From Meyerozyma guilliermondii (lineage: Eukaryota), in NCBI GenBank assembly GCA_051546255.1, contig CP128816.1, positions 1,736,001 through 1,800,000 of the forward strand: DNA of 64,000 nucleotides, written 5' to 3'. The translations under genes and the position numbers were made by a program. Under the pieces are notes generated by a model that saw nothing but the letters and a program-made list of their open reading frames with translations, was not told the DNA's origin and ran no database searches. Shown piece after piece: positions 19,942-37,182 of this stretch; position 1 is the stretch's first letter, and every line of letters begins with the position of its first letter.

Positions 19942-22900
19942 TTATACATTTTCTAAGAAGCTCTTGTTCTTCAATGAAACACTCTTTGTCATGTTGTTCA
20001 CCTTGTAGATTCCCACCAATTGCTGTGCCAACTCAAACATGTTATTTCTCAAAGAAATAACCACAAATTGGGCATTTTTCGTACGTTCTTTGATGTAGTT
20101 GGCCACAATCGAAACATTCCTAAAATCCAACGCAGCATCGATCTCATCCATCACATACAATGGTGTGGGCTTGTATTTATGTAAGGCAAACACCAATGCA
20201 AGAGAACTCAAGGTCTTTTCTCCACCAGACAAATTTGAGATGTTTCTCCACGACTTCTTCGGAGGCATGACACTAAACAAGATACCTTCGGAGAATGGAT
20301 CCAAACTATCCACAAGTTCTAGTTCTGCATTTCCACCCATCGTAATCATTTGATACATTTCTTTCAATGAAGTGGATATGGTATTGAAACCTTCCATGAA
20401 CTCATCGAGTCGACGCTTTTTAAGATTCTCGCAGAACTCGCTAAGATCATTTCTTTCCTGGACAGCCACATTTAAGTCGTCCCGGCGCTCTTCATATTCA
20501 GCCTTCTTGGCACCGTATTCCTTTAAAATTTCGATGTCCACTTTCACATTTTTCATGTAATCTTCGAGCTCACTTATCTCTTGGTTAATGGAATCCATGT
20601 CGAGCAGAGCAAGCTCGTCCTCGGGTAAGTAATCAATGGCAGCTCCGTCATATTGCTTGCGCTCAGACTCTTCTAGCCATCCAATATACTCTGAAACATC
20701 ACGAACAATCAATGACTTGAGTTCCTCTTCATTCGTCTTAATTCCATGTTTCGTCCGCTTTATAAATCCATTCACTTTTTCCAACTTATTTTCGATGTCA
20801 ATTTCCTTCGACCTGAACTCATTTATTTGCAGCATCCACTCTTCCATTTGAATCTTGACTTTCTCACGCTCATCTTCTTTGGCCTCTTTCTGTTCGTTTA
20901 GCAGTTCTACCTGTTTTGAGATATCGTTGAGCTCCTCGGTGACCAGTTCAAGTTGACCACGAAATGCTGTGAGCTCGTCTTCTGATGTTTTGAGCTCTAT
21001 CTCCGAGCTTTCTAATATCCTAGTATGCTTCTTGATTTCATTCTCGAGCTTTTTGATTAACATACGATCATTAGAAATTTTGTCATTGATAATCTCAATC
21101 TTTTGTCTGGTTGAGTCAACCTTGGAGCTTTGTAATCTCAACTCAACTCCACCGGCCTCCATGATCTTTTCTTCGAGCATTGTTACCTCAGCTTCCATGC
21201 TGGCCATCTGTGACTTCAATTGATCTCTCTCTTCTTCGAGCAGTTTTCTCTTAGCTAACTTGGAATTTAGCTCCCTCTCAGCATCACTGCTCTGTTCGCT
21301 TTTCTCGTGCTCACTAATAAGATTTTTGCATATCCTCAGGATATCCTTTTTCTCTGCAACTAAGGATTGAATATCAAGTTCTAGCCTCGATATAGAAAAC
21401 TCCGTTTCTGGCTTCAAGTCTTGTAGCTTTCTCAAATTGATTTGCTTTTCCTTAAGTTCTGAACGTGCCTTGTCAAATTCGCCTTCAAGAACCTGAAGTT
21501 TATTGCGCAATTCTTCAACCTCCTCCTCTGTGACATCTGCCTGTGTAGACTTTTTAGCTGATTCAAGTTTCATGGCACCTTTTGCAGATACTGTCCCACC
21601 ACCAGACATAGTACCCGAGGTATCGACAACTTTACCATCCAAGGTAACAACTTTCCATCTTTTCGCCCCATAAGCAACTTGCTTAGCCTCCAGTAACGTG
21701 GATGTCACTAAAGTATTGTAAAGTTTACTGTAAAAGGCAGGTGCAAATTTTTGATCCTGGGGAGTTATCATGTCGAATAATCGCTTCAGATTGGGAGGCA
21801 CGGATATAGGATCGAGATTGAAGTTGCGGAGCTTATTCAAGCAAATGAATGTAGCATATCCTAATTTGTTCTTCCTCAAATAATCGATACACGCCTGCGC
21901 AGTTTCAACTGTTTCAACAACCATCGAGTCCAACCCTGGACAGACTGTCGAAATTGCGACATCATACCTATCATTGATGGTACCCAAATCTCCTAATCTT
22001 CCATAAAAGCCGTCTATTCTGCCCGATTTGGCCAAGCGTACCAAGCTGGTCAATACTTTGCTCTTGTTTTTGTGTGATGAGAGTGAGGTGATTGCTTCCT
22101 GTGTCTGCTGACGAACAGCAAGTAATTGTGATTGCTTTGACTCGAGTGACTTCTGTTCCACTTCGCACGCGCTTTGGCCAAGCTGAATTTGCTCCGAGAT
22201 TTGATCTAATTTTTGACGGGCATTGATCAATTCCTGCTCTTTTTCTTTGCCCTCAGTCTTGATGTTGATCAACTTTTGTTTATATTCCTCGATCTGGTTT
22301 AGGGCATTCTCCTTCTCCTTTTGAAGCATATCAATTGAAGATGTCACGAGTTGTATTTCACTTTCCTTTTCTTTGAGCTGATCATTCCATGGTTCGAGCT
22401 TGGTTTGTATGGCTTCGATTTGTTTAGCAAAAACGGACGTTTTATCCGTGAGCCTGCGTCTGATTTCGTCTAATACATGCTTTTCAGATTCCAAATTTTT
22501 TGTAAGTTGGGAAAGCTCATCCTTCAAATCTTCCATGTTTTTGTTGCTCTCTTCTAGCTTTGAAGTGGAAGTGCTCAAAACGAGCTTCAGGCTTTGCTGA
22601 TTTTTTGCAGCTTTCTTGATCTTATTTGTCATGTTCTTGATCTTCTCATCCCCCGATACGTAGACTTTATTGACAGCCTTACTTCGCTTCAGTAAAGAAT
22701 TCAACTGATTAGAAAGTTCGTCAATAACTCTTGAAATTTCCTTCTGTAACTTTGAGCATTCTTCGATTTTGTCGGTGAGCTCTTTGTTACCTTCCTTCTC
22801 TGCCTTTAGTTGTTCCTCCAACTCTTCCCTTTTTGCCTCAACATCATTCAATTTCTTCTGATGCTCTTGGATGTTTGTCTGATATTGAATGGATTTTTTG

Positions 22901-24021
22901 CTGATTAATAACTTCTCTTTTGCAAGAAAGCTCAATGCTTCGTTCTTCTTTTCCTCCATCAGTTCCTTGTCCTTTTCAACAAGCTCAAATCGATTCTCTT
23001 TTTCGATACAAACGTCGTTAAGTTCGTCAGCTTTTGTCGTGTTCTCCTCGATTAAAGATTTGTACTTGGAAGTTCCAATGATATCCTCCAAATATTCTAA
23101 AAGACCATCATCGTTCTCCTTCTCAGCTTTCGCTTTCATTTGAGCAATCTGTTCGACTTCACCTTGAAGAATTAAGAACCTTTTATGGTCTAAATCGATT
23201 CCTTGGTCCTTCAAAAAGCTAGTGACCTCAGTGTAGTTACTGCCTTTTCCATTGATATAGTACTGGGAAGAATTATTCTTGTATGCTTTTCGACTGATGA
23301 CAAGCAGCGAATTGGGCACCACGGTGGAAACAACTGGATCATCATTGCTGTCTATGACGTGGTTGAAGTGTATATCGACCTGGCAAAAATCGAGTTTCTC
23401 ACCTCCAGCGGAATTGTGAATAAGTTCGGACAACTTGCCCTGACGCATTTTCAGAGCACGAAATCCAAATACAAATAACATAGAATCGATGACATTAGAT
23501 TTTCCACTTCCATTGGGCCCCACTACCGCAGAAAAAGATGCATTGAAAGGACCAATGACTTGTTGGCCCGCATAAGATTTGAAGTTGGTGAGCACTAATT
23601 GAGAAATCACTAGTCGAGACTTTTGTGGAGCCGGCTCAGATGTAGAAGCGGCATTCATGGAAGTTTCGGATACTGATGCTCCTGGTGAAGGGGAAAGTAG
23701 GTTGCCACTTGCTGGATGTGGGATATTGCTGAGTTCAGGTGACGCGTTCGATTCGTTATTATTCATCATAGACTTGCTATTCTCGATCAAATGGTCTTGT
23801 GGTGTTGATTCTGAGTTTACGTCTTCCATAGCTTCGTCTTCTATAATCTCGTCCTTGAGAGCTGAGTCTAGATTCAATGAGGCTTGATGGTTGGTGTTTT
23901 GTTCATCATCTTCTGAAGTCCTATCAGGGGTAATATAATCACTATTGTTGATAAAAGTTGATTCTTGTGGTTCCTCTTCAGTCGGGCGAGATCGCTTGAG
24001 TGCCCGTTTCTGGCGAGGCAT
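19942..24021 (-). CDS. SMC4: Condensin SMC ATPase subunit
   Basis: Walker A GPNGSGKSN, hinge GFYGRLGDLG..GTMSGGG, signature LSGGEKTLSSLAL and Walker B YVMDEIDAALD. Confidence 0.97.
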   Translation of the reverse strand: MPRQKRALKRSRPTEEEPQESTFINNSDYITPDRTSEDDEQNTNHQASLNLDSALKDEIIEDEAMEDVNSESTPQDHLIENSKSMMNNNESNASPELSNIPHPASGNLLSPSPGASVSETSMNAASTSEPAPQKSRLVISQLVLTNFKSYAGQQVIGPFNASFSAVVGPNGSGKSNVIDSMLFVFGFRALKMRQGKLSELIHNSAGGEKLDFCQVDIHFNHVIDSNDDPVVSTVVPNSLLVISRKAYKNNSSQYYINGKGSNYTEVTSFLKDQGIDLDHKRFLILQGEVEQIAQMKAKAEKENDDGLLEYLEDIIGTSKYKSLIEENTTKADELNDVCIEKENRFELVEKDKELMEEKKNEALSFLAKEKLLISKKSIQYQTNIQEHQKKLNDVEAKREELEEQLKAEKEGNKELTDKIEECSKLQKEISRVIDELSNQLNSLLKRSKAVNKVYVSGDEKIKNMTNKIKKAAKNQQSLKLVLSTSTSKLEESNKNMEDLKDELSQLTKNLESEKHVLDEIRRRLTDKTSVFAKQIEAIQTKLEPWNDQLKEKESEIQLVTSSIDMLQKEKENALNQIEEYKQKLINIKTEGKEKEQELINARQKLDQISEQIQLGQSACEVEQKSLESKQSQLLAVRQQTQEAITSLSSHKNKSKVLTSLVRLAKSGRIDGFYGRLGDLGTINDRYDVAISTVCPGLDSMVVETVETAQACIDYLRKNKLGYATFICLNKLRNFNLDPISVPPNLKRLFDMITPQDQKFAPAFYSKLYNTLVTSTLLEAKQVAYGAKRWKVVTLDGKVVDTSGTMSGGGTVSAKGAMKLESAKKSTQADVTEEEVEELRNKLQVLEGEFDKARSELKEKQINLRKLQDLKPETEFSISRLELDIQSLVAEKKDILRICKNLISEHEKSEQSSDAERELNSKLAKRKLLEEERDQLKSQMASMEAEVTMLEEKIMEAGGVELRLQSSKVDSTRQKIEIINDKISNDRMLIKKLENEIKKHTRILESSEIELKTSEDELTAFRGQLELVTEELNDISKQVELLNEQKEAKEDEREKVKIQMEEWMLQINEFRSKEIDIENKLEKVNGFIKRTKHGIKTNEEELKSLIVRDVSEYIGWLEESERKQYDGAAIDYLPEDELALLDMDSINQEISELEDYMKNVKVDIEILKEYGAKKAEYEERRDDLNVAVQERNDLSEFCENLKKRRLDEFMEGFNTISTSLKEMYQMITMGGNAELELVDSLDPFSEGILFSVMPPKKSWRNISNLSGGEKTLSSLALVFALHKYKPTPLYVMDEIDAALDFRNVSIVANYIKERTKNAQFVVISLRNNMFELAQQLVGIYKVNNMTKSVSLKNKSFLENV

Positions 24022-25025: not shown

Positions 25026-25361
25026 ATGTTCGGTTTGGCAGCTTCGACCAGGGGCATTTGGCCAGTTTCCCAGAGGTTGATACAGGCCCAGAGCCGGAAC
25101 TTTACGTCCTTGGTTCGTTCAACTCCATTGGCAAGACCAGAAATGATCAAAAATGTGAATCGCATTCCAACAACTGTCTCCCCTATACTGTCCTTGCTTG
25201 AAATAGTACAAAGACGATTCAAATCCAGGGGTAATACATACCAGCCATCAACGTTAAAGCGTAAGCGAACTTTTGGTTTCTTGGCGAGATTGAGAACCCG
25301 GAATGGAAGAAAGATATTAGCAAGAAGAAAAGCAAAAGGTAGGTGGTACTTGACCCACTAA
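25026..25361 (+). CDS. Mitochondrial ribosomal protein bL34m (YDR115W/Mrx14 orthologue)
   Basis: Basic amphipathic presequence, then [44 protein letters not shown] (L34 signature). Confidence 0.93.
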
Positions 25362-25427: not shown

Positions 25428-28400
25428 TTAGGCTTTGCCCAATATTTTTGAGTACTGCGTTTCAATCTGGTGAATGAATTTTTGTAGTGTGACGATTGCA
25501 AGTTGGTGAGTAGCATCAGGGAATCGATTTCTATGCAATCCAAACCATTCCAAAGGAGGTGTGGCATTACCCAACTCCTTAAGTCTGGGCGCTTCGATGA
25601 TAGGTGGAGCAAGTGGGGTATATTTGTAACTTGATTCTTCCGTCACTTTGGCAAGCGTATCATTGATGTCTTGTTCCATATCTTGCTTCTCAGTTAAAGG
25701 TGTACGCAAGGTGTTTTCGTCAATCTCACCTTCTTTTCTGTATTTTATTCTTGTGAGCCACGCTCGCTTGTGAATGGCATACATCTCTCGAATGAAGTTT
25801 ACGGAACCCAAGTTCCATTTCACTTCAACAGTTCCTCCAAATGCTGATTGGAACAAGTATTCAATTTCTTGTGATTCATATTTTTGATAAGTTCTCATGC
25901 AAATCCTGAGAGAAGGAAATACAAAAATATTGCCCCCTTTGGCTTTATGAGCAAGCTCCACAAATTCAGTAACGGTTCCATTGAGTACAGTTTCCGGTTT
26001 AATTGGTGCGGTCACCGATAATGACACATTTATGCCGCTAAATTTCACATCAAGCTGGTTAGAAACACCGGCAGTGATTTCTGTCTGTTGAAAGTGAGCT
26101 CTGGATTGATCAATCTTCATCACCAATACCTTGGAATCCTCGAGAGATGATGGGTAAACGTAGATGCGAAGATTACCCAAGAGAACTTCGATTCGAAACT
26201 CGAGCTTTTTCACAGTCTCTAACATGATTCTGCTAGCTGCAATGGCTAACCCTCCATTTTTCTTTTGTTCCTGACCGTACGAATCCCAAAGAGTCTCACT
26301 ATAAGACCGCCTATTCTCTTGAATCATCCGCGAGACAGCATTGTTGATATCAATAATATTCGATGCCGCCAAAGACGTCATATATAGCTCTGCTGATTCG
26401 ATATTCGCGGTAACGAATAGATGGTCCTTTGAGATCGTGTGCTCGTTCTTCTGGTTATAGACGTCAAGTGAGCTTCCTCGCAAGTCTATGATCGCGAAAA
26501 CATGGTAATCGAAAGACGCTTTCACCTGAAGGGAATCGATACCACCAGATACTAGGATGAGTGGGATATCAAGCACTTCGGCTCCATACTTCCATCTGAT
26601 GGCGGTATGAAGAAATGCGTCCCTAAGTTGTATGTTTCCCCCGAGTCTACCCTCCGATGTAAGCAGCACAATGTCGGTACCAATCTTCAAATCTTGAGCC
26701 CAATCGGTCGATTTTTTCGATACTAGCCAAAAGTTATTGAGACTCAAATTGAAATTACCAAGCAGCTGCCCGACGTCCATTTGGAACGACATATTGGAAA
26801 CCACAAGAGTAAATATCCATGGAATTGCATAAGTGGTGGAAACCTCCTTGAACCTTGAAGATATGTTTCTGGAACTTGATAGATGATCTGACTGCGTAAC
26901 AGATAATTTGCTTCTTTGTGGGGTAGGCTCTGAGACGTTTTTAGCTTTGTACAAAGACTTGGGAAACCAAATATCTTTGAACAAGTCGACGTCCTGAAAC
27001 TGCTTTGCATCCACTGAGCCAACCACATCAGATATAGAGCACGATGAGATCACGCTGGTCGTTTTACCCATCTCCACTGAGCTTAAAAATATAACTTGCG
27101 AAACCTTAAGCGAGGCACTTATTTCACGGGAGTATATGTGTTGAAGTGAGGCGTAAAGTGGGTTCAAGCGAATCGCAGCAGTAATTGAGGTATGTTCTTT
27201 CTCGACAGTATTGATCTGAATGTAGATACCGTCGATTCCAACTACTGCTTCGACTCTTGCGGTGGGCTCACAAGACAAGGCTAATCGCTGCTTTTCAAAG
27301 CGAATTCCCACATGAACATCAAAATCTTGAAGTATGTTGGTCATACTGCTCTTTGAACTTGTAATCAGCAGCTTTCTGCGCTCTCTGGCAGCTTGTTCAT
27401 TCATGCTTACATCTTTGCTGGACGTACGCATCATTTGCTTGAAACCATTGGCGAATTCAGCCATGACTGGAACACATGAGGCGTATACTGTGTTGTCAGA
27501 AGCACTGGCCATTACTTCTGATTTGATGACATGCCTCTTTGGACCATGCTTGTTGTGAGTATACTTGGTGACAAACTTGACGGCTGGTGAATGCAATGAT
27601 AATGCTGGTGCATCACTCACACTGACTTGGTCGTTGCTCCACAACACCATGTTAGAACCGGCAAATGTTGCCTGGAATTCGACTGAAGTAAACCATGGTT
27701 TGAATGGACGTTGTTCTGGTTGCTTTTCTTCTGTGCTTGTAACATGCTCGCTCCTTAACTTATCCAACAAGCGCTTCACTTCGTTTCCTGACTGAATTAC
27801 TCTTTCGACCAATAGCACTGAATTCGAGAGGAAGCAAATATCCAACTCGTCACCCGTGAGAATTATAGTGAGGTTCTTCTCTCCGCTATTAACCTCCTCA
27901 ATAAAGTAGCAGAGTTGGATGTTGGGTAAAAAGGCTCTGTTTAGACTTACTCTTTCCGACAGCGTACTGAAGAAATTAGACGAAGCGGATCCGTTGGCAA
28001 CTGAAAGATATGCATCGATCAAGGTGAACTTACCAAGGTCTTTTTCAGTAACAGCAAAGAACCGCTCGGCTCCCATTATTATTCCTGGGTAGTCTTTATG
28101 TTGCAGTCTAAAGATCCAACCTAAACACCAATTGTAAGAAAGTACATGGACTGAAACAAAGCGAGAAAATATACCATTTTTAGACCCCTGATCGCTCTTG
28201 ACGGGCTTCTTCACCGAATTGTGGCTTGGAACTTCACGGTGGAAATAATTGGACAACCTAGATTCACCAAGCACTTTTAAAGTACTAGCAGTGGTCTTCG
28301 ATAGCTTGTGGGCTATCATTGCAGCTCTCAATACAGCTTGAGGACTCAATACAATCCTGAAGTATTGTGATTCCACTTGCAATGTTTGCCCTTTCGCGGC

Positions 28401-31400
28401 GAAATCATTTGAAACTTTGATGCTGGTATTGAAATCCACCACTGTCGAGAGTGATAAAGGTATTTGCTTATCAACAATCGACACCCTTGTTGAAGGTATG
28501 TATACATCACCAAACACGGGAACTATGCTATAAATCTTCGACGATTGCTCCTTTTGGGTCACCTGTAGAGTTGATATTGAACAAGCCATATTGTCAAACT
28601 CGAAATTTACCCTACTGTTGTCAATACCAACCGATAAGCTGAGATAGTCAATCGAAAAGCTTGACTTGAAAACAACAGGTTTTTCACGCTTGGGACTTGA
28701 TCTTAAAGGTGGAGTATCGTCTGTTTTCTTTGGGCTCTTGTTCCCAAGAACTTCGAAGCATTGACGGAGAGAATCAATTCTGGTCTCCAACTTTGGCAAA
28801 CTCGTTTCGAGCTCCAGCATTCCTTGGAGTACCTTTGGAAAACTGATCTTCGTAAAACCTATGCTGTAATCAAAGTCAAGCAACGTATTCGCAGAATTGT
28901 TCTTGACTAAGACGCTCAATTTCGTGTCAGAATTTTCAAATCCACAGATGACGCTCTTCGCAATGAAAGTACTCAATTCTGTTGACCCGAGCAGAAACTC
29001 GAGAATTTGCGCTCCATTTGAGGAATCAACCGAGAAATCGATATCTCTCGAAGAACTCACTAGCGTTATAGGATCCAAGAAGTTCGCTTTAAACAAGAAG
29101 TTCGCAATACCAAACTTCGCAAATATGTCTGGTGCTTTTCGTGAGCCGCCTAGCTTATCCACTGCTTGAGGTGGGTTGCTCAGTGTGGATGGTTTAGGTA
29201 CAAATGTACGTTGTAATCCCTTGATGTAGTCCACATCCTCTTTGATCATCGCTTCCAAACTTTTAGAAGCTTCCAAATTGTGACCAAATAGATGCATCGA
29301 GATAACATCGGCATCAATTTCTAAGACTTTCGGACCCTCTCTCAAGGTACCCACAGTAGCGGCAGATACTCTAATGTTCTCTCCACTCAAAGAAGCCAAG
29401 TTTTCAGCGCCAACACTGAATTTGATGGCCAGAGTTCCAAGCTGACTAGACAAAGTTATCTGGTTGGTGTCGCCTGCGACACCAAGTCGGAGACCATGAA
29501 CTGCGTTTGATCCTGACATCCTAACAGTTGAGTTCAAAATTTTTAAAGTCTGATCATAAGAGGATATTTTGATTACTCCCGAAACTCTTTTCTGTAATTG
29601 GGTCACAGCTGAATCTGCTTTGGGTGCGATTGGTTCTTTGGGGTTCAGTTCCGATTGTGCTTTAAAAGTTGCCAACAAGTCGATAGATAGAGAGGATATA
29701 AAGGACTCATAGTGCCCAATCTGACACAAAATCTCAACAACTTCATCAGTTGAGGAAATTGCTTCGTCCTTTATAACACCACTGACCAATTTGGCCATGT
29801 CAAGTGAGGCACTGGATGAGTTCAAGATAATCCGATTGGTTTCCTCGTTCATCTTTGAGATTGACAACACGAGACTGCCAACAGCAAATTTATTGAGTCT
29901 TCGGTTGTCATTTGGAGCATTCATTTCACGGTTGAAAACCTTTTTGAATAGAAATCCATTACTCGTATCCACTTCCCAACTTCTCCACCGCGAGAATATA
30001 CCTAAGACATCTTCGTATGCGGTGTCAGGAGCTTCCCATTGAAGATTTTGCAACTTTTCGTTCGTGTCGTTCTCCCATTGCGAGGGTATATTACTCAACA
30101 CATGGCGCAATCTCGTGATAACTTTCCAGCTATCGTAGGTTCTAACATGATCGTGGACAGATCTCAAGACATGTGTGGGCTTCGTCAATACAGCAGAATC
30201 GTGATCGATTCTGTATTGATCACTGGCCATTGTAAGCTTATAAACGAGCTCCGCTTCTGCCTTGGATTCCATATTCGACTGTTTCGAGTTTTCCTTCAAG
30301 ATGGGAGCCATTTTCTCCTTCAAATGTGCGATATAGCATCTCAAGAATTCCACTTGAGCTTCCTCAAGTGATATATCAAAATCATCAATTGTCACCGATG
30401 AAGTCTCGTTATTAGCTGTGTCTATATCTCTCCAAAATTCAGTATTGGTGACCCTGAAGGAGACTGAGGCTGCGAAAGAAGATGGGTCTGATATTGAAAC
30501 AAGAATTTCTTTCACATGGCCAGCGAAAGTAGCTGATGTAGAAGGAAGGGCCTCATCACCTCCAAAATATTTGAATGCTTTCGAAAGCGCCAAAGATGGC
30601 TCATGCAATGACAAAGATAGAACTGGGACCGGCAGTGGCAGATCGAATATAGTTCTTGGATTATAGGTTTCAAACTCACCGACTTTGAATATAACTTCTG
30701 GCACTACTATCCTGGTGCAATCGTCTGCAGCAAGTGATAGTATCAGCTTTCGAATATTGCTGACAATGTCGAATTCAATATTGTCCATTAAAGTCTCCAT
30801 CCTTAGATCTTTGAAGTTCCTTTGTAATCTCACTATGGCCATTACCGCTCCTGAAGTGATGAATGAGTGTATGACCCCAAATTGCAAAATGGCATTTCCG
30901 TGCTTCGAGTCTGGTGATTTCTCGTATTCCGGTTTGAAGTCGGAATCATTATACTCGTAGAGAAAGCTGTCGAACGACGAATCAACGTCGTCGAATGAAA
31001 ATGATGACCTCAAAGAGCCTGATGAGCTCGATGAAAGACTTGGTGTGCTCCAAGTGCTATCAAGGTAGTCATCCCATCCGCCTATTGAGTCGAAGGTCTC
31101 TCCGTTCAAAGGAATACTGACATCGGGCAATGTCAAATTGGTGCTCAAAGATCCGAGAGCACGCTTGTACGTGAAATCACGATCATCTGGAGGAAGTATA
31201 AATGGACATCTATGGAACGGTCCATCGTTAAACTTCACATGCTGTCTTTGAAGCTTTTGCACCTCCAAAGAATTTGCTTTGAGAATAAAGTTACTAAGAG
31301 TCAACGAGGTGTTGAAGTATCCTAGCACTTTTCGCTCGCCTCCACTTTCACTTTCGCCTAATACACTCGCGGTAATCTCGGGTAGGTAAATCGAAATACG

Positions 31401-34400
31401 AGTGTTGTACCTGCCGTTGGGGAGATCATTCAAAGAAACGACTAGCGATCCTAAATTCGCCACAAGTATCGGACAGTTTGTTGGTTCAACTGCAGGTCTA
31501 ACATTGATAATGAAGCTAGGGCACCTGAAGGAGAAGTTTGCGGCATCGTGCACTATTGGGAGCGTAGGCACGAGACAATTTTCAAGGTCCTTGAAAGTAA
31601 ATACGAAGCTTTTGATGCTTGTAAGAAGTCCTGTGAGGAATTTTGCCTGACTGTCAATTTCGATAGAACCAGCAGCAAAATCCCACTTGCAGTAATAGGT
31701 TATCTGGTCAGGAGGAGGTCCGAACATTCGATGGGCGTGAATGTTGAGCCCATCAACTAAAACTTCTGGGGGACCTTCATTGAAATACTTCTCAACGTAA
31801 GCGGGAATATCAAATATCAATGAATTCTCTTCCTCCTCCAATACAAATACTCCTTGAGTAGGACTAAAATCTGCCTGGATATCCATGTAGTAGTTCGTGA
31901 ATCGAAGATCGATATCAAACGAATCGAAATTGAATGCCACGTGTGAAGCAGTACTGTAGAAATTGTAAGGCAAAAGTAATAAGCCGTGTCTCACCTGAAA
32001 CACAAATTCAACATCAAGATCATTTTCTATCTTGATGAATCTTTCGCCCGCATCTTCCTCTTCTATTTTAGTCTTTAGAGTACTCGAAGAGTCGTAAGGA
32101 GTGTTGATTTCAGGTGATTCTGTAGGCATAGTAGTATACTCTTCAAAAGTTTTGAACTTGACATGATCACCAAAGTAATTTTCTCGAGCTGTAAATAAGT
32201 ATCGCACCAAGTAACCGTAAAACTTCAAGGTTATAAAGTCTCCAACAATTCTGATGATGATGTGGTTTGAAGTGGTTGGGTCAATTATGTTAAAGAAAGT
32301 GTATGAGCCATCAATCGTGAAATCGCTACTACGACCCATTTCTTCTGATCTGGAGAAAGCATCAACGGTATGCCACAGGGGAGTAGAGAGCACCGCACTT
32401 AACGCAGGAGTGTAAATCTTGTAAGATATGGTGGCAGACCGGGTGAGGTTACCGTTTAGGGGTATGGCAACTTGGGCTTCGAGTCTATCTCCTTCAAATG
32501 ACAAATACTTATTGCTGTCGAAATCCAATGGATTGTCAATAATGTTTGAGTCGTTAACGTTCAAGTAGAGTTTATAATCATCCATGTTCCAATCAAGGAT
32601 ATACTCAAATGGTCTCAAGTACTCGTAAGCTGGAGGGGGGCCTGAAGCAAAGTCGGCGAACAAGTCTGAAAGAAGAAAGATATGCTCACGCAACAAAAAA
32701 AGTCTTGCTTTGGTGCTCTGATTTGCAAATTTCCAGAGACATGGAGCGTTCCATCGCAATGGAAAACCTATATCGCAATCCAAAACGTGAGTATCTGCTG
32801 TGAATAGTATATCGTGGTTGACAGAAGATCGAAGCTCAGGTTGTAATAAGTAAAGGGAAAGCTTGTTGGCCCAGCCGTTTTCCCTATTACTAGTGAAAGA
32901 TGTGTATGAACATACAGATGATTTTGCAGCCATCTTGAGTTCAAGCCATCCAAAGGAACGAGCAATTTTTGTTGTAGGCATCGCACCGCTATCAGACTGT
33001 AGGTGGCTGCGAACAATTTCCTTGTCTTTGCTGGCTTCACGTATTGGAATTCTAAAAATCAATTCGTCTTTGACAGACACCACCACTTTGAAACCATCAT
33101 ATTGTCTTTTCATACCCGGCTGAGGCGTGGGCGTGGGACTTGAATCACGAGATAAAGGAGGAAAGAACATTTGTTGCAAAGGCACACGTTGTTTGTCGGC
33201 CCATGGACCATAGTGAATTGTTGCCACCGCAAGCTCTATGTCAACACCGTACTCAGGAGTGGCGTACGTTAAGGGGTCTCCTTCTTGAGGAAAATTGCCA
33301 AGGGAGTCGAAGTAATATATGAATCGGGTCAGGGCAGAGTCCAATATCAAACTGTATTTTGCATACTCTTCCTCTGTGTTCAAGTGAATGTTGTTGGGGC
33401 TTCGGGGCTCATTGTCTATGTAGCGACGCAACCCTCGCCACTCCTTACTTGCTTCCTCGAGCTTGATTTCTGCCTGTCGTTTTTTAGGTCGCAATAAGCG
33501 GACAGCCTTTTTTGAAGCCTGATGAAACTTGTGCCAATATTGATATTGTCGCTGGCGGTTTAGGCGGATGGTTGATGACTTGTGGTTGAGTTGTGAGGTC
33601 TTTGGTTTGGTGTACTTTGATTTGTCGTAGGATATATTTGGTTTCATTGATAGTTGAAATTGGGCCAAACTGAAGTTGTAGACATGACGAAAGTAGTCAA
33701 GAGGGCACGGAGACTGATGGAGGTCTATTATGCCAAATGCTGATTTATAGGATGCCACAAATATGCTGGGGGTGGTAGAATTGCCTAGGATAAGTGTACC
33801 CTTTTTTATCTGAACTCTTATTGGCATTAGACGGAGAAGATAGCTGAGGGAGGTGCTTTCGGCAGGACCCGTTTTAGCTGTGGTAAACTTGGTAGTTTCA
33901 GATGGATTTTTAGCCTTTTCATTAAGCATCTGTTCGATATTGTCATATGCAAATGATCGGTTATACATGAACACCTCAAGGCCCTCGAGGTACAAGACAA
34001 ATCGACAAGGAAGTTTTTCATTCTCATCTCTAGGAATTCCAGATTCAAGCTCTTGTCTCATTTGGTAGTAGAATTCTGATATTCTGATGATTCGAAAGAT
34101 CCAATATCGCCATGAGAAGTTGAGGGCAAGCACCGATATGGTATAATCCTGGGTAGTAATTACCAAGTTTTTCGCAAATATTCGGCCGCCCAACGGTGAT
34201 ATTCTAAGTGATTCGACGGTGATTCTCGTTTTGCTTCGTCTCCAAAGAAACAACTTTAATAGAAACGTAACAATGAATCCAATGAGACGACTGAAGAAGA
34301 AAAGGAACGCCAACGCCACTATAAGAGACAAGATCCAGTCCAGTAAATACACCCATGGTGAAGAGTTCTTTCCACCCACATTGGTGGAAGTATACTGAAA

Positions 34401-34412
34401 CTGGTTTGCCAT
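25428..34412 (-). CDS. CSF1: Csf1 bridge-like lipid transfer protein (BLTP1 family), 2994 aa
   Basis: N-terminal TM anchor, SLRISPLGGRIFAKN, GLEVFMYNRS, IHYGPWADKQR and C-terminal PPIIEAPRLKELGNATPPLEWFGLHR. Near SMC4, as in S. cerevisiae. Confidence 0.93.
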   Translation of the reverse strand: MANQFQYTSTNVGGKNSSPWVYLLDWILSLIVALAFLFFFSRLIGFIVTFLLKLFLWRRSKTRITVESLRISPLGGRIFAKNLVITTQDYTISVLALNFSWRYWIFRIIRISEFYYQMRQELESGIPRDENEKLPCRFVLYLEGLEVFMYNRSFAYDNIEQMLNEKAKNPSETTKFTTAKTGPAESTSLSYLLRLMPIRVQIKKGTLILGNSTTPSIFVASYKSAFGIIDLHQSPCPLDYFRHVYNFSLAQFQLSMKPNISYDKSKYTKPKTSQLNHKSSTIRLNRQRQYQYWHKFHQASKKAVRLLRPKKRQAEIKLEEASKEWRGLRRYIDNEPRSPNNIHLNTEEEYAKYSLILDSALTRFIYYFDSLGNFPQEGDPLTYATPEYGVDIELAVATIHYGPWADKQRVPLQQMFFPPLSRDSSPTPTPQPGMKRQYDGFKVVVSVKDELIFRIPIREASKDKEIVRSHLQSDSGAMPTTKIARSFGWLELKMAAKSSVCSYTSFTSNRENGWANKLSLYLLQPELRSSVNHDILFTADTHVLDCDIGFPLRWNAPCLWKFANQSTKARLFLLREHIFLLSDLFADFASGPPPAYEYLRPFEYILDWNMDDYKLYLNVNDSNIIDNPLDFDSNKYLSFEGDRLEAQVAIPLNGNLTRSATISYKIYTPALSAVLSTPLWHTVDAFSRSEEMGRSSDFTIDGSYTFFNIIDPTTSNHIIIRIVGDFITLKFYGYLVRYLFTARENYFGDHVKFKTFEEYTTMPTESPEINTPYDSSSTLKTKIEEEDAGERFIKIENDLDVEFVFQVRHGLLLLPYNFYSTASHVAFNFDSFDIDLRFTNYYMDIQADFSPTQGVFVLEEEENSLIFDIPAYVEKYFNEGPPEVLVDGLNIHAHRMFGPPPDQITYYCKWDFAAGSIEIDSQAKFLTGLLTSIKSFVFTFKDLENCLVPTLPIVHDAANFSFRCPSFIINVRPAVEPTNCPILVANLGSLVVSLNDLPNGRYNTRISIYLPEITASVLGESESGGERKVLGYFNTSLTLSNFILKANSLEVQKLQRQHVKFNDGPFHRCPFILPPDDRDFTYKRALGSLSTNLTLPDVSIPLNGETFDSIGGWDDYLDSTWSTPSLSSSSSGSLRSSFSFDDVDSSFDSFLYEYNDSDFKPEYEKSPDSKHGNAILQFGVIHSFITSGAVMAIVRLQRNFKDLRMETLMDNIEFDIVSNIRKLILSLAADDCTRIVVPEVIFKVGEFETYNPRTIFDLPLPVPVLSLSLHEPSLALSKAFKYFGGDEALPSTSATFAGHVKEILVSISDPSSFAASVSFRVTNTEFWRDIDTANNETSSVTIDDFDISLEEAQVEFLRCYIAHLKEKMAPILKENSKQSNMESKAEAELVYKLTMASDQYRIDHDSAVLTKPTHVLRSVHDHVRTYDSWKVITRLRHVLSNIPSQWENDTNEKLQNLQWEAPDTAYEDVLGIFSRWRSWEVDTSNGFLFKKVFNREMNAPNDNRRLNKFAVGSLVLSISKMNEETNRIILNSSSASLDMAKLVSGVIKDEAISSTDEVVEILCQIGHYESFISSLSIDLLATFKAQSELNPKEPIAPKADSAVTQLQKRVSGVIKISSYDQTLKILNSTVRMSGSNAVHGLRLGVAGDTNQITLSSQLGTLAIKFSVGAENLASLSGENIRVSAATVGTLREGPKVLEIDADVISMHLFGHNLEASKSLEAMIKEDVDYIKGLQRTFVPKPSTLSNPPQAVDKLGGSRKAPDIFAKFGIANFLFKANFLDPITLVSSSRDIDFSVDSSNGAQILEFLLGSTELSTFIAKSVICGFENSDTKLSVLVKNNSANTLLDFDYSIGFTKISFPKVLQGMLELETSLPKLETRIDSLRQCFEVLGNKSPKKTDDTPPLRSSPKREKPVVFKSSFSIDYLSLSVGIDNSRVNFEFDNMACSISTLQVTQKEQSSKIYSIVPVFGDVYIPSTRVSIVDKQIPLSLSTVVDFNTSIKVSNDFAAKGQTLQVESQYFRIVLSPQAVLRAAMIAHKLSKTTASTLKVLGESRLSNYFHREVPSHNSVKKPVKSDQGSKNGIFSRFVSVHVLSYNWCLGWIFRLQHKDYPGIIMGAERFFAVTEKDLGKFTLIDAYLSVANGSASSNFFSTLSERVSLNRAFLPNIQLCYFIEEVNSGEKNLTIILTGDELDICFLSNSVLLVERVIQSGNEVKRLLDKLRSEHVTSTEEKQPEQRPFKPWFTSVEFQATFAGSNMVLWSNDQVSVSDAPALSLHSPAVKFVTKYTHNKHGPKRHVIKSEVMASASDNTVYASCVPVMAEFANGFKQMMRTSSKDVSMNEQAARERRKLLITSSKSSMTNILQDFDVHVGIRFEKQRLALSCEPTARVEAVVGIDGIYIQINTVEKEHTSITAAIRLNPLYASLQHIYSREISASLKVSQVIFLSSVEMGKTTSVISSCSISDVVGSVDAKQFQDVDLFKDIWFPKSLYKAKNVSEPTPQRSKLSVTQSDHLSSSRNISSRFKEVSTTYAIPWIFTLVVSNMSFQMDVGQLLGNFNLSLNNFWLVSKKSTDWAQDLKIGTDIVLLTSEGRLGGNIQLRDAFLHTAIRWKYGAEVLDIPLILVSGGIDSLQVKASFDYHVFAIIDLRGSSLDVYNQKNEHTISKDHLFVTANIESAELYMTSLAASNIIDINNAVSRMIQENRRSYSETLWDSYGQEQKKNGGLAIAASRIMLETVKKLEFRIEVLLGNLRIYVYPSSLEDSKVLVMKIDQSRAHFQQTEITAGVSNQLDVKFSGINVSLSVTAPIKPETVLNGTVTEFVELAHKAKGGNIFVFPSLRICMRTYQKYESQEIEYLFQSAFGGTVEVKWNLGSVNFIREMYAIHKRAWLTRIKYRKEGEIDENTLRTPLTEKQDMEQDINDTLAKVTEESSYKYTPLAPPIIEAPRLKELGNATPPLEWFGLHRNRFPDATHQLAIVTLQKFIHQIETQYSKILGKA

Positions 34413-34521
34413 TCAGTAGTTTTGAGTTATGGCTGTGGTGATTTGAATCTTTTTGGGTGGTCCTGCAGATCAGTGCGAAAGGGTCGCAAATATAATCTCA
34501 GACCAAAACACAAACATCACC

Positions 34522-35388
34522 ATGTACAGTAGGAAATCAGTACAGGATGAAAATGCGTTTCTGGCGCCTCTGAAGGGTCGAAAGATCGCCCGCGTGCCTC
34601 TAGGAAGCAAGGACCGTCGTCAACCACTTTTACAAAAGTCCCAATCTAGCCTTAATACCCTTGATCGTCCTTCGAAGCCACAACTTACCAAATCTAACCT
34701 GGTTTTAGGGGTCACTGAAGGGCTGAAAAAGTACGAATCTCGCCCTGAGCAGTTGCATGTTGAACAGAAAGCTTTTTTTCCGGAAGTTTCTGGTCTGAAC
34801 GCCTTTGAAGGGCACCAGTTGATACCAAAAGATAACGTTCCAGTTGATGTTCTGACTCAAGTAGCACCGGAAATAAGCGCAGAAAATGCTGTTACAACTC
34901 CCCTGAGCACTTCTGTGCGCCAAAATGCTATGCTTACTCCCGATTCCCACGATTTTTCATACACAGATTCCATTCCGAAACCAAATATCGCCCCTAAACC
35001 ACCACTTGCAACCTCGCTCCGCGATACATTCTCTTCACGAACAAAGCAGCTTGACGCTGTCAATGTTATCGACCGCGATCTCCAGCGTTCAAACGTCGAT
35101 CCTATCAAAAAGGTCCCCGTTGAATCGCGGTCAATTGTAGTTCCCCAGGATTTGATTGATGATGAAACCAGTGTGGAGACGATCCCACAACGGCCAAGAA
35201 TGAAAACCCCCTCCGACTTGGACGAGTTATATGAAATACCCGGCGGACACCACTATCAAAGTGAGGTAACTGGGGCCATGGAAGATATTGATCTTGATGA
35301 TCCTCGTAACTTTGGATTCGACGAAACCAATGAACCGGAAAATATTGGCATGACGGTGGACGAATTGAACGACTTGCTAGATATGTAA
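34522..35388 (+). CDS. Probable securin (divergent Pds1/Eip1-like separase inhibitor), 288 aa
   Basis: Basic N-terminus with DEN and D-box RVPLGSKD; KSN(S)VLG; VETIPQR; acidic C-terminus GMTVDELNDLL. These parallel S. cerevisiae Pds1 motifs as recalled, and the gene neighbourhood fits. Confidence 0.72.
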   Translation: MYSRKSVQDENAFLAPLKGRKIARVPLGSKDRRQPLLQKSQSSLNTLDRPSKPQLTKSNLVLGVTEGLKKYESRPEQLHVEQKAFFPEVSGLNAFEGHQLIPKDNVPVDVLTQVAPEISAENAVTTPLSTSVRQNAMLTPDSHDFSYTDSIPKPNIAPKPPLATSLRDTFSSRTKQLDAVNVIDRDLQRSNVDPIKKVPVESRSIVVPQDLIDDETSVETIPQRPRMKTPSDLDELYEIPGGHHYQSEVTGAMEDIDLDDPRNFGFDETNEPENIGMTVDELNDLLDM

Positions 35389-35426: not shown

Positions 35427-36755
35427 TTATTGTTGCGTGCACTCGGCCTGGGGCCCATTTTGGTACCCTCCATGACTATTATCGTGGTCCTGATCCTCTT
35501 CTTCATCATGGTAATCTGGAAGTGACAGTTCACGGGCAATCCTGAAATCGGTCACAAGTTCCACGTTTGCGTCTGTGAGAGTATCTAAATCACCATTTTG
35601 TTTGGTAGACACTTCTGTGGGAAGTAAATTCCGCATCTTTGTAAGATCATTTTTTTCCAAATACCAGCTATCTTGAGGAAACTCAATCTCCATTTTGATA
35701 TAAAGGTCTCCTCGTGTTGGAGACAGACCGAACCACCGGCGTTGCAGCTTTTTGATGGGCATTCCCTCGCTAGTGATCTTTATATAGTCACCAGGACGAA
35801 TAACTTTTCCTGTTGGAGTAGCCACTTTAATCTTTCTCCCGTCCAAATGTTGAGCCACCACCCGGGTAAACCCACAGAGTGACTCCACGAGAGGAATGGT
35901 GAACGTGGTGTACAAGTCGTTCTTCTTTCTGGTGAAAACTGGATGGTCCACACATGTGTAAGTTAATACGACGTCGCCAGTTTCTTTACCTGGATATTGA
36001 TCTGATTCATTCTTTAATACAATCAGCTCACCCGAGAATGATCCTTTTTCAATTTCGAACTCTAGAATCTTGGTTTCTTCCACCACTTTTTTGCCTGTAC
36101 ATTTTTTGCATCGATCCTTTGTTCGAAATATCTTTCCTGCTCCGCTACATGTCGAACAATCGACGTAGTCTTGTGCCACAAGACCTGGACCCACTCGTCT
36201 GATCTTACGAACTGTGCCTTCTCCGTCGCATACCCCACATTTCCTGGACACAGCATGCTTCTTAGCTCCGGTTCCATGACAGTGAGAACAGATTATATCT
36301 CTTGTGGAAGTAATTTTGATTACTTTGCCATTGAACAAGTCCTCTAGTGTCACGTCCACATTAATCTCTGCATCCTTGGTACGTGGTTTGCCCGGTCTGG
36401 CACCTCCTGCTGGAGGTCCTCCATTCATATTGTTGAAAAAGTTGTAGAAATCATCAGCTTGAAATTCCTGACTGCCTCCAAACATGTTATCAAAGGGATT
36501 TTCTGAATAGCCATGGTACCCATTAGCCATTTCTGGGCCATCCGTAGTTCCGTACATGTCATATTGACGCCGTTTATCTTCATCCGAAAGAATTTCGTAC
36601 GCTTGTGAAACCTCTTTAAATTTTATCTCCGCCTCCTCCCGACCTTCGGATCCCACCTTATCGGGATGGTATCGTAATGCTAGCTTTCTGTATGCTTTTT
36701 TAATCTCTATGTCGGTGGCAGAGGTATCCACCTCTAGCACCTCATACAATGACAT
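35427..36755 (-). CDS. XDJ1: Type I DnaJ co-chaperone with zinc finger and CaaX box
   Basis: J domain with HPD, G/F-rich region, four CxxCxGxG-type repeats and C-terminal CTQQ. Position next to CSF1 favours XDJ1 over YDJ1. Confidence 0.8.
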
Positions 36756-37097: not shown

Positions 37098-37100
37098 TGG

Positions 37101-37182
37101 CGACACGAGCAGGGTTCGAACCTGCGCGGGCAGAGCCCAAAGGAACCTGCATCCTTCGCCTTAACCACTCGGCCATCGTATC
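37101..37182 (-). tRNA. tRNA-Ser with anticodon CAG (decodes CUG as serine), intronless, 82 nt
   Basis: Minus strand GATACGATGGCCGAGTGGTTAAGGCGAAGGATGCAGGTTCCTTTGGGCTCTGCCCGCGCAGGTTCGAACCCTGCTCGTGTCG. Acceptor stem GATACGA/TCGTGTC with G73; anticodon loop U-G33-CAG-G37-U; variable arm GGGC-UCU-GCCC; T loop GGTTCGAACC. Confidence 0.97.

What the first reader, a model, noticed from the sequence alone, without database searches (positions are those of the whole stretch)
34522..35388. Orphan-looking ORF between CSF1 and XDJ1 is probably the true Pds1 securin orthologue
Seen: a 288-aa basic-to-acidic protein with QDENA, RVPLGSKD, KSN(CTG=S)VLG, SVETIPQRP and terminal IGMTVDELNDLL. Recalled: S. cerevisiae Pds1 has DKENN, RLPLAAKDN (D-box), KYGSVLG, DIEIAPQRQ (separase pseudosubstrate region) and GLDPEELEDLV in the same order. 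PDS1 (YDR113C) and bL34m (YDR115W) lie in the duplication sister block of SMC4-CSF1-XDJ1 (YLR086W-YLR090W), and those four neighbours are all present here. CTG-clade yeasts are usually said to lack a recognisable Pds1, and C. albicans Eip1 was proposed as a divergent securin. Inference: this is that gene and it is a positional orthologue of PDS1. The SVLG match only appears once CTG is read as Ser.
Basis: partly seen in the sequence, partly recalled or inferred. Interest (0 to 1): 0.75.

Follow-up and report, generated by a model that had tools for sequence, protein, structure and literature searches.

The report
Securin gene of a CTG-clade yeast
This small gene between CSF1 and XDJ1 most likely encodes the yeast's securin, the disordered protein that holds the chromosome-separating protease in check, and it links the Candida protein Eip1 to baker's-yeast Pds1.

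Summary

It is a real gene. Close relatives are 52-97% identical. A profile of them finds 67 representative proteins.

One of these, P0034, matches three C. albicans EIP1 fragments translated from published primers: 10 of 10 residues at the start, 30 of 33 at the end. The window protein aligns with P0034 over nearly its full length (E 8e-9). So it belongs to the Eip1 family.

The link to Pds1 is also supported. A 69-sequence profile hits one sequence among 177,635 distinct solved-structure sequences: the S. cerevisiae securin fragment of 5U1S/5U1T (E 1.7e-5). The hit survives removal of every member that Pfam already calls securin (E 7.1e-5).

Neighbours are SMC4, RPA14, bL34m, CSF1 and XDJ1. 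They fit the PDS1 neighbourhood, but are not collinear with it.

Not tested: separase binding, APC/C-dependent turnover, and the N-terminal match to full-length Pds1.

Verdict: a new member of a known kind.

The parts
34522..35388 (+). Coding sequence of the securin (Eip1/Pds1-family) protein: 288 aa plus a TAA stop, read with CTG=Ser
   Evidence: define the frame. It aligns with the Eip1-like P0034 at E 8e-9. The family profile hits PDB securin 5u1s_B.
34543..34557 (+). QDENA (aa 8-12), a degenerate KEN-box position that reads DEN, not KEN
   Evidence: One search gives coordinates. At the aligned columns E is present in 46 of 69 and N in 47 of 69. A canonical KEN lies in the first 70 aa of 26 of 69 family members; 36 of 69 have only [DSQ]EN. 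Whether DEN works as a degron is not tested.
34591..34617 (+). D-box-like degron RVPLGSKDR (aa 24-32)
   Evidence: R24 67/69, P26 67/69, L27 67/69, K30 68/69. The column of R33 is N in 63 of 69, so the window's clade departs from the family at that position. Function as an APC/C degron is inferred.
34690..34710 (+). KSNSVLG motif (aa 57-63) with the CTG codon at 34699-34701 (Ser60)
   Evidence: S 62/69, L62 66/69, G63 65/69. The CTG column is Ser in 61 of 64 distant members. Role unknown.
34963..34980 (+). TDSIPK motif (aa 148-153), a family-invariant core
   Evidence: D149 69/69, K153 67/69. C. albicans EIP1 carries FTDSLTKPTQ, read from the reverse complement of primer SS28R. AF2 pLDDT rises above 80 from about aa 150.
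35041..35112 (+). TKQLDAVNVIDRDLQRSNVDPIKK (aa 174-197), a conserved block ending in NVDPxK
   Evidence: T174 63/69, D193 64/69, P194 69/69, K196 69/69. AF2 predicts short helices at 166-169 and 172-176 with pLDDT 83-89. Role unknown. It lies upstream of the Pds1 fragment in 5U1S, so it could not be compared.
35146..35196 (+). QDLIDDETSVETIPQRP (aa 209-225), holding the pseudosubstrate-like SVETIP at aa 217-222, which has Pro where a separase substrate has Arg
   Evidence: Profile positions 'SiEtiPe...' align to DIEIAPQRQEPLPYVPEG of S. cerevisiae securin chain 5u1s_B. E219 is 63/69 and P222 is 59/69. The pseudosubstrate mechanism is described in PMC6858450 (passages).
35287..35319 (+). IDLDDPRNFGF (aa 256-266), an acidic conserved block
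   Evidence: These residues are invariant within the ten-sequence alignment A1 (I256, L258, D260, P261, N263, F266). They are less conserved in A2.
35344..35385 (+). C-terminal IGMTVDELNDLLDM (aa 275-288), a predicted helix
   Evidence: G276 68/69, L282 63/69, L285 63/69, L286 67/69. It aligns to GLDPEELEDL at the end of 5u1s_B. AF2 predicts a helix at 279-286 with pLDDT about 87.
25428..34412 (-). CSF1, the divergent upstream neighbour (109-bp intergenic gap)
   Evidence: Pfam Csf1_N E 5.7e-238 and Csf1_C E 7.1e-202.
35427..36755 (-). XDJ1-type DnaJ protein, the convergent downstream neighbour (38-bp gap); it ends in CTQQ
   Evidence: Pfam DnaJ, DnaJ_C and DnaJ_CXXCXGXG. The sequence just downstream of C. 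albicans EIP1, read on the opposite strand from primer SS33R, encodes ...SCAQQ-stop. The match to the window protein's C-terminus is weak (E 0.11).
25026..25361 (+). Mitochondrial ribosomal protein bL34m, a synteny marker
   Evidence: Pfam Ribosomal_L34 E 1.8e-22.
19942..24021 (-). SMC4-type condensin subunit, a synteny marker
Evidence: Pfam SMC_N and SMC_hinge.

Best explanation
The ORF encodes the securin of a CTG-clade (Serinales) yeast. It is an orthologue of C. albicans Eip1 and a divergent homologue of S. cerevisiae Pds1, lying in the same ancestral gene neighbourhood.

Proposed mechanism (inferred, not shown here). The protein is largely disordered. Its basic N-terminal third carries the APC/C degrons: a near-invariant RxPLxxKD D-box and a degenerate DEN at the KEN position. 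Its acidic C-terminal third binds along separase (Esp1) as an extended chain. SVETIP sits in the protease active site as an uncleavable pseudosubstrate, with Pro where substrates have Arg. The terminal GMTVDELNDLL helix provides a distal anchor. Destruction through APC/C-Cdc20 at metaphase would then free separase to cleave cohesin.

Shown here: the gene is real and conserved; it belongs to the Eip1 family; the family is detectably homologous to the separase-binding segment of Pds1; CTG must be read as Ser. Inferred: binding, inhibition and regulated turnover.
For: - Gene: an intact 288-aa frame. Relatives are 52-97% identical. The profile finds 67 representative proteins at E<=1e-3, of which 56 are at E<=1e-10.
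- Eip1 link: P0034 is found at E 2.8e-23. It begins MSSHIFKDIQ, identical to translated primer SS28F. Its last 33 aa are 30 of 33 identical to translated SS33F. BLASTP of the window protein against P0034 gives E 8e-9 and 27% identity over aa 24-286 against 62-322.
- Eip1 function: in C. albicans, Eip1 co-purifies with Esp1, is needed for normal chromosome segregation and shows Cdc20-dependent modulation (PMC6743357; abstract and passages).
- Pds1 link: the A2 profile (69 sequences) against 177,635 distinct PDB sequences gives a single hit at E<=10, securin 5u1s_B/5u1t, at E 1.7e-5 and 27.9 bits.
- Control: A3 (60 sequences) omits all 10 members with any PF04856 match. It again gives only that hit, at E 7.1e-5.
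- Single-sequence bridge: family member P0024 alone finds the same chain as its top hit (E 0.003).
- Pfam: PF04856 Securin matches 9 of 69 members at E<=0.01. Two of them exceed the 22-bit cut-off: P0008 at 25.9 bits and P0024 at 24.6 bits. No other Pfam family matches more than one member at E<=0.01.
- Naming: UniRef names the Candida subhashii member 'Securin'.
- Disorder: AF2 gives mean pLDDT 60.3 and pTM 0.22. The N-terminal half averages 55 or less per 10-residue block, and there are only short helices in the C-terminal half.
- Charge: the N-half is positive and the C-half negative in 74 of 74 family sequences.
- Neighbours: SMC4, RPA14, bL34m, CSF1 and XDJ1.
- Code: the codon-60 column is Ser in 61 of 64 distant members. 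A tRNA(CAG) with G33 and G73 is at 37098-37182.
Against: - The window protein itself has no PF04856 match, even at E<=10.
- The ten-sequence profile of its nearest relatives (A1) does not reach Pds1 in the PDB. Its only hit at E<=10 was an unrelated carboxypeptidase at E 0.52. The Pds1 link therefore depends on intermediate sequences.
- The Pds1 match covers only the 117-residue crystallised fragment and scores a modest 26-28 bits.
- Only 2 of the 74 distinct family proteins scanned pass Pfam's own cut-off.
- The window protein has no canonical KEN box. Its D-box lacks the Asn that 63 of 69 relatives carry.
- It has no full CDK consensus site.
- The VPE/LPE-type docking motif that follows the pseudosubstrate in Pds1 and in many relatives (LPYxP) is degenerate here (PRMKTPSD).
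- Gene order and orientation are not collinear with S. cerevisiae.
- The support for an XDJ1-like neighbour in C. albicans is weak (E 0.11).
- In C. albicans, Eip1 is not essential and has phenotypes beyond a simple securin (PMC6743357; passages).
Confidence: 0.85

Rival explanations
1. The protein is an Eip1-family separase partner that is not descended from Pds1. It would be an independently evolved disordered protein whose short linear motifs (D-box, ExxP pseudosubstrate, acidic C-terminal helix) converged on the same separase and APC/C surfaces.
For: Short linear motifs in disordered proteins can arise convergently. The Pds1 match scores only 26-28 bits and covers motif-rich segments separated by a long gap. 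The window protein and its ten nearest relatives do not reach Pds1 on their own. The authors of PMC6743357 saw 'little similarity' to Pds1, Cut2 or PTTG1 (section 8).
Against: Among 177,635 PDB sequences the only hit at E<=10 is securin, in two profile versions. The motifs occur in the same order. PF04856 matches in 9 of 69 members span the profile from the degron region to the pseudosubstrate region. The gene lies beside bL34m, CSF1, SMC4 and XDJ1, whose S. cerevisiae counterparts surround PDS1 or its duplicate block (S. cerevisiae map recalled). Convergence does not predict shared position.
Confidence: 0.08
2. The protein is homologous to Eip1 and Pds1 but no longer acts mainly as a separase inhibitor in this lineage. 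For example, it might act chiefly as a separase chaperone or localiser, or in the DNA-damage checkpoint. APC/C control would be weakened because the KEN box and the D-box Asn are lost.
For: The protein has DEN instead of KEN. The column of R33 is Asn in 63 of 69 relatives. The docking motif after the pseudosubstrate is degenerate. Eip1 is non-essential and has extra phenotypes, including enrichment after MMS or HU (PMC6743357; passages).
Against: The RxPL core and the SVETIP pseudosubstrate are intact and conserved in the close relatives P0003, P0004, P0006 and P0007. Pds1 itself combines the inhibitor, chaperone and checkpoint roles (recalled), so these roles do not exclude one another.
Confidence: 0.06
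3. The ORF is a chance open frame or a mis-called gene in the short gap between CSF1 and XDJ1.
For: There is no Pfam hit for the protein itself. The composition is low in order-promoting residues. The flanking intergenic gaps are very short, at 109 and 38 bp.
Against: Full-length relatives are 52-97% identical, and the wider family has invariant columns. The opposite strand, in the one register translated, is closed.
Confidence: 0.01

Closest known systems
Eip1 (Orf19.955) of Candida albicans, an Esp1-interacting candidate securin (PMC6743357)
   Same: Same family. An albicans-type member (P0034) aligns with the window protein over almost its whole length (E 8e-9). They share the D-box RxPLGxK, KSNSxLG, TDSxxK, NVDPxK, an ExxP motif and the C-terminal GLxxxxLxxLL. 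Both have a basic N-half and an acidic C-half. A convergent gene ending in a CxQQ box lies just downstream in both (weak).
   Different: Identity is only 27%. The window protein is shorter (288 aa against 325 aa). It lacks the canonical N-terminal KEN that P0034 has at aa 12. It has SVETIP where the albicans-type sequence reads PIENIP. No experiment exists for the window protein.
Pds1 (securin) of Saccharomyces cerevisiae, as crystallised with separase in PDB 5U1S and 5U1T
   Same: The family profile aligns from the pseudosubstrate motif (DIEIAPQR in Pds1, SVETIPQR in the window protein) to the C-terminal GLDPEELEDL (GMTVDELNDL in the window protein). The overall design is the same: a disordered protein with N-terminal degrons and a C-terminal separase-binding segment. 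The gene neighbourhood is shared, but the S. cerevisiae map is recalled.
   Different: The similarity is not detectable by single-sequence or small-profile search from the window protein. Pds1 is longer (373 aa, recalled). Its VPE docking motif is not preserved in the window protein. The comparison of the N-terminal halves could not be run. Gene order is not collinear.
Pfam PF04856 Securin (sister-chromatid separation inhibitor; PTTG-type model)
   Same: 9 of 69 family members match at E<=0.01, and 2 are above the gathering score. The matches cover model positions from about 3 to 174 of 219.
   Different: The window protein and its nearest relatives do not match at all. The family is at the edge of the model's reach.

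Membership tests
Eip1 family (CTG-clade separase-interacting protein) | Significant full-length sequence similarity to C. albicans Eip1 | tested here: met
   P0034 carries the EIP1 termini deduced from published primers. BLASTP of the window protein against P0034 gives E 8e-9 over aa 24-286. The profile E-value is 2.8e-23. The full C. albicans sequence itself was not available; P0034 stands in for it.
Eip1 family (CTG-clade separase-interacting protein) | Physical interaction with separase Esp1 | not testable with these tools
   No separase lies in the window (Pfam scans of 30 window ORFs). None could be fetched. The complex predictor's description admits window proteins only under code 11. 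No complex job was sent.
Securin (Pds1 / Cut2 / PTTG) | C-terminal separase-interacting segment beginning with a pseudosubstrate motif ([DES]-hydrophobic-E-x-x-P, uncleavable) | tested here: met
   SVETIP lies at aa 217-222. The family profile aligns this position to DIEIAP of securin chain 5u1s_B, which is the only PDB hit at E 1.7e-5 and 7.1e-5. This is a sequence-level test only; occupancy of the active site was not modelled.
Securin (Pds1 / Cut2 / PTTG) | N-terminal D-box (RxxL...) | tested here: met
   RVPL lies at aa 24-27 and is near-invariant in the family (R 67/69, P 67/69, L 67/69, K30 68/69). The trailing Asn of the family (63 of 69) is Arg in the window protein. Function was not tested.
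Securin (Pds1 / Cut2 / PTTG) | N-terminal KEN box | tested here: not met
   There is no KEN in the window protein, only DEN at aa 9-11. 26 of 69 relatives have KEN in the first 70 aa. A KEN box is common in securins, but I do not know it to be obligatory (recalled).
Securin (Pds1 / Cut2 / PTTG) | Intrinsically disordered, non-globular protein | tested here: met
   AF2 with 69 sequences gives pLDDT 60.3 and pTM 0.22. There are no strands, and the five helices are 4-8 residues long. Foldseek against the PDB finds 0 matches. Order-promoting residues make up 24%.
Securin (Pds1 / Cut2 / PTTG) | Match to the curated family model PF04856 above its gathering score | tested here: not met
   The window protein has no match even at E<=10. 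Among relatives, 2 are above the cut-off and 9 of 69 are at E<=0.01.
Securin (Pds1 / Cut2 / PTTG) | APC/C-Cdc20-dependent destruction at anaphase onset and inhibition of cohesin cleavage | not testable with these tools
   There is only indirect evidence, from Eip1 in C. albicans (PMC6743357; abstract and passages).
Positional orthologue of S. cerevisiae PDS1 (YDR113C) | Location in the ancestral block that gave YDR111C-YDR115W and YLR086W-YLR090W | tested here: inconclusive
   The window side is confirmed: SMC4, bL34m, CSF1 and XDJ1 lie within 17 kb of one another around the ORF. The S. cerevisiae side rests on recalled names. Only ALT1 (YLR089C) and ALT2 (YDR111C) as WGD paralogs was found in print. 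Strand suffixes show that order and orientation are not collinear. No gene-order browser or yeast genome context was available.

The most novel reading that the evidence does not exclude
Securin was never lost or replaced in the CTG clade. Eip1, published as a Candida-specific protein without sequence homologues among known securins, would be the direct sequence and positional orthologue of Pds1. The family then defines a securin architecture across budding yeasts with two further near-invariant blocks, TDSxxK and NVDPxK. These lie upstream of the crystallised Pds1 fragment, and their partners on separase or elsewhere are unknown.
Probability: 0.75. Interest if true: 0.45.

Novelty: new member of a known kind. 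Interest (0 to 1): 0.4.

Why it matters
Securins evolve so fast that they have repeatedly been declared missing. The 2019 Eip1 study had to find the C. albicans candidate by affinity purification, because it found no sequence homologue of known securins in C. albicans (PMC6743357, abstract).

A profile-level and neighbourhood-level link between Eip1 and Pds1 has three uses:
- It turns 'candidate functional analogue' into 'orthologue'.
- It allows annotation to be transferred across the CTG clade.
- It points to exact residues to mutate: RVPL, SVETIP and the C-terminal helix.

It also flags two conserved blocks of unknown role (TDSxxK and NVDPxK). For this window alone, the result is a sound annotation of one gene, not a new kind of system.

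Tried and rejected
- Pfam on the window protein alone found nothing relevant. At E<=10 the only listed match was a parvovirus NS1_C stretch at E 0.13, taken as noise.
- The ten-sequence profile A1 against the PDB gave no securin, only a carboxypeptidase at E 0.52.
- I tried to obtain full-length Pds1 or named Saccharomycetaceae securins. The search with the A2 profile returned 16 proteins, none from outside the family already in hand. The search with P0024 residues 50-362 returned 3 proteins: P0024 itself, a Scheffersomyces coipomensis protein and a Candida margitis protein. So no profile-profile comparison with a Pds1 alignment could be made.
- Foldseek of the AF2 model against the PDB gave 0 matches, as expected for a disordered chain.
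- No MCB element (ACGCGT) lies in the 109-bp CSF1/ORF intergenic region. The window holds 3 such sites, against 6.2 expected by chance. This gives no promoter evidence either way.
- The supplementary alignment figures S3 and S4 of PMC6743357 hold no text sequence. The mass-spectrometry table gives no peptides.
- A search for a paper listing the S. cerevisiae systematic names together found none.
- Synteny of the family in other yeasts could not be checked.
Full report
**The observation.** Under NCBI table 12, window 34522-35388 (+) is a single ATG-to-TAA frame of 288 codons. Seven of them are CTG, at residues 14, 17, 60, 68, 92, 111 and 128. The complementary strand, read in the one register I translated, is closed by many stops. 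No other ORF of 80 aa or more overlaps the stretch. The N-terminal 72 residues are basic (net +9) and the last 88 are acidic (net -19).

- an SMC protein at 19942-24021 (-)
- RPA14 at 24186-24866 (-)
- mitochondrial bL34 at 25026-25361 (+)
- CSF1 at 25428-34412 (-)
- a DnaJ protein of the XDJ1/YDJ1 type at 35427-36755 (-)

**It is a real, conserved gene.** The first homology search returned 11 proteins. Six are close relatives at 52-98% identity, four of them full-length; one (P0005, 189 aa) covers only 66% of the query. Five form a more distant group at 31-34%. A profile of ten of these sequences (A1) was run against 1.84 billion representative proteins. It found 67 at E<=1e-3, of which 56 were at E<=1e-10.

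In the 69-sequence alignment A2 several columns are invariant or nearly so:
- the D-box-like RxPLxxK (R24 67/69, P26 67/69, L27 67/69, K30 68/69)
- S60 62/69, L62 66/69, G63 65/69
- D149 69/69 and K153 67/69
- D193 64/69, P194 69/69 and K196 69/69
- E219 63/69 and P222 59/69
- G276 68/69 and L286 67/69

Loosely written patterns for five of these motifs occur together and in the same order in 29 of 69 members. They do so in 0 of 20,000 shuffles of the window protein. The patterns were derived from the family, so this only excludes composition as the cause. All 74 family sequences examined have a positively charged first half and a negatively charged second half.

The four members that carry source names are all from Serinales yeasts. 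They are Candida (Hemisphaericaspora) subhashii, Spathaspora sp. JA1, Scheffersomyces coipomensis and Candida margitis. I looked up the lineage for two of them.

**The genetic code.** The column of codon 60 is Ser in 61 of 64 more distant relatives. The four close relatives, which come from database translations, show Leu there.

In addition, a tRNA with anticodon CAG lies at 37098-37182 (-). Its sequence shows G at position 33, G37, a long variable arm and a G discriminator base. From memory, these are the hallmarks of the CTG-clade serine tRNA(CAG). I did not test aminoacylation identity.

**Link to Eip1.** PMC6743357 (abstract, sections 7-8, methods and discussion passages, Table S3) describes Eip1/Orf19.955. 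It is a 325-aa C. albicans protein that co-purifies with separase Esp1, is needed for normal chromosome segregation and is modulated in a Cdc20-dependent way. The authors call it 'specific to Candida species'. They report little similarity to Pds1, Cut2 or PTTG1 apart from a 50%-confidence Phyre2 alignment.

The paper prints no sequence as text, so I used its primers:
- SS28F, which starts at the EIP1 ATG, translates to MSSHIFKDIQ.
- The reverse complement of SS28R translates to FTDSLTKPTQ.
- The gene-specific part of the C-terminal tagging primer SS33F translates to a 33-residue C-terminus.

Family member P0034 (323 aa) begins with exactly the first peptide. It contains FTDSLTKTIQ. Its C-terminus is identical to the third peptide at 30 of 33 positions. 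P0034 is therefore an albicans-type Eip1 or a very close relative.

The A1 profile found P0034 at E 2.8e-23. It aligns pairwise with the window protein at E 8e-9 and 27% identity, over aa 24-286 against 62-322. The window gene is thus a member of the Eip1 family.

**Link to Pds1.** The window protein alone has no Pfam match. The ten-sequence profile does not reach any securin in the PDB.

The 69-sequence profile finds exactly one of 177,635 distinct PDB sequences at E<=10. This is chain B of 5U1S/5U1T, labelled Securin, at E 1.7e-5 and 27.9 bits. The alignment starts at the family's SiEtiP motif, set against DIEIAPQRQEPLPYVPEG. It ends at the family's GLsxdeLndL, set against GLDPEELEDL.

To see whether a few Pds1-like members drive this hit, I rebuilt the profile from 60 sequences. 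This set omits every member with any PF04856 match, including P0024. The same single hit returned at E 7.1e-5. P0024 on its own also finds this chain as its top hit (E 0.003).

Pfam's Securin model PF04856 matches 9 of 69 members at E<=0.01. Two are above the 22-bit gathering score and seven lie just below it; a tenth member, P0029, matches only at E 0.029. The matches run from the degron region to the pseudosubstrate region of the model. No other Pfam family matches more than one member at E<=0.01. UniRef already names the C. subhashii member 'Securin'.

I could not obtain full-length Pds1. They agree with my own recollection, which is not evidence.

**Position.** Within 17 kb the window holds SMC4, RPA14, bL34m, CSF1, the ORF and XDJ1.

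- PDS1 is YDR113C and bL34m is YDR115W.
- SMC4, CSF1 and XDJ1 are YLR086W, YLR087C and YLR090W.

The two regions are linked by ALT2 (YDR111C) and ALT1 (YLR089C). A preprint states that these are whole-genome-duplication paralogs (10.1101/2023.09.07.545205; one passage). That places the ORF in the same ancestral neighbourhood as PDS1.

The arrangement is not collinear. In the window SMC4, CSF1 and XDJ1 are all on one strand, whereas the W/C suffixes alternate. CSF1 also separates bL34m from the ORF. Small inversions would be needed to reconcile the two maps.

On the C. albicans side, the strand opposite to EIP1 just past its stop (primer SS33R) encodes a C-terminus ending SCAQQ-stop. The window's XDJ1-type protein ends ECTQQ-stop. 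The match is weak (E 0.11) and is only suggestive of the same convergent neighbour. No yeast genome context or gene-order browser was available.

**Structure.** AlphaFold2 with the 69-sequence alignment gives mean pLDDT 60.3 and pTM 0.22. No 10-residue block in the first 150 residues averages above 55. There are five helices of 4-8 residues, at 166-169, 172-176, 209-213, 261-264 and 279-286. Confidence peaks over aa 150-180, 200-230 and the last ten residues. Foldseek finds nothing in the PDB. This is what one expects of a securin. Securins are described as intrinsically disordered when free, and as binding separase in an extended, antiparallel chain that starts with a pseudosubstrate motif in the active site (PMC6858450; passages).

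**Mechanism proposed.** The following is inferred from Pds1 and Eip1, not shown here.
- The basic N-terminal third presents RVPL, and perhaps DEN, to APC/C-Cdc20.
- The acidic C-terminal third lies along Esp1.
- SVETIP occupies the active site, with proline where substrates carry arginine. Human securin has EIEKFFP at this position, and changing FP to RE makes it cleavable (PMC6858450).
- The terminal helix acts as a distal anchor.

Points that fit less well:
- There is no canonical KEN box.
- The D-box lacks the family's Asn (63 of 69).
- The LPE/VPE-type docking motif after the pseudosubstrate is degenerate: PRMKTPSD, against LPYxP in many relatives.
- There is no full CDK consensus site.

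The blocks TDSxxK and NVDPxK are the most conserved parts of the family. They have no assigned role, and they lie upstream of the crystallised Pds1 fragment.

**Novelty.** Four literature searches found only PMC6743357 and two papers that cite it for Eip1:
- Eip1 + securin + Candida albicans + separase
- securin + Pds1 + CTG clade
- Eip1 + Pds1
- Eip1 + Candida from 2019 onward, 40 papers holding the terms, 25 listed

PMC6743357 itself has zero occurrences of 'synten'. So I found no printed statement that Eip1 is the sequence or positional orthologue of Pds1. Subscription-only papers and database curation notes were outside my reach.

Automated annotation already labels at least one family member as securin. 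The authors themselves proposed a securin function. The gene in this window is therefore a new, unannotated member of a known kind. The wider point, that the CTG clade kept its ancestral securin, is a modest but useful clarification.

Noticed in passing
window 37098-37182 (-): A tRNA gene with anticodon CAG, which ARAGORN labels Leu. The anticodon loop reads U-G-CAG-G-U, so position 33 is G and position 37 is G. It has a long variable arm, and a G discriminator base follows the acceptor stem GAUACGA/UCGUGUC. From memory, these are the features of the CTG-clade Ser-tRNA(CAG). If so, this is the gene that reassigns CTG, 340 bp from XDJ1.
   Followed up: partly
window 34591-34626 (aa 24-35 of the ORF): The window protein and its four closest relatives read RVPLGSKDRRQP, or KELRKP in one. 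In 63 of 69 family members the column of R33 is Asn (RVPLGGKDQN). The same clade also lacks the extra N-terminal segment with a canonical KEN box that the P0008 group has. This suggests a lineage-specific loosening of both degrons.
   Followed up: partly
window 34963-34980 and 35041-35112: TDSxxK (D 69/69, K 67/69) and NVDPxK (P 69/69, K 69/69) are the most conserved columns of the whole family. They correspond to no securin motif that I know. They lie upstream of the Pds1 fragment seen in 5U1S.
   Followed up: no
window 40267-41892 (+): A 541-aa protein with CENP-B N-terminal and Tc5-transposase HTH DNA-binding domains and a long Q/P-rich tail. It looks like a domesticated pogo-type DNA-binding protein, possibly PDC2-like (recalled), rather than an active transposase.
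   Followed up: no
window 43317-45434 (-): A 705-aa ORF with no Pfam match at E<=1e-4. By eye, the translation printed looks coiled-coil-like, serine-rich and acidic, with a hydrophobic C-terminal stretch. It remains unassigned.
   Followed up: no
window 34443-34521: The database relative P0002 (311 aa, 97% identical) starts 23 codons upstream of the ATG, in the same open frame and at a non-ATG position. The ATG at 34522 coincides with the start of P0003, P0004 and P0007, so the longer form is probably a gene-calling artefact.
   Followed up: partly
window 8286-9761 (-): A 491-aa protein that combines an HSF-type DNA-binding domain with a response-regulator receiver domain. This is the SKN7 architecture (name recalled). 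An ordinary gene, noted only for annotation.
   Followed up: no
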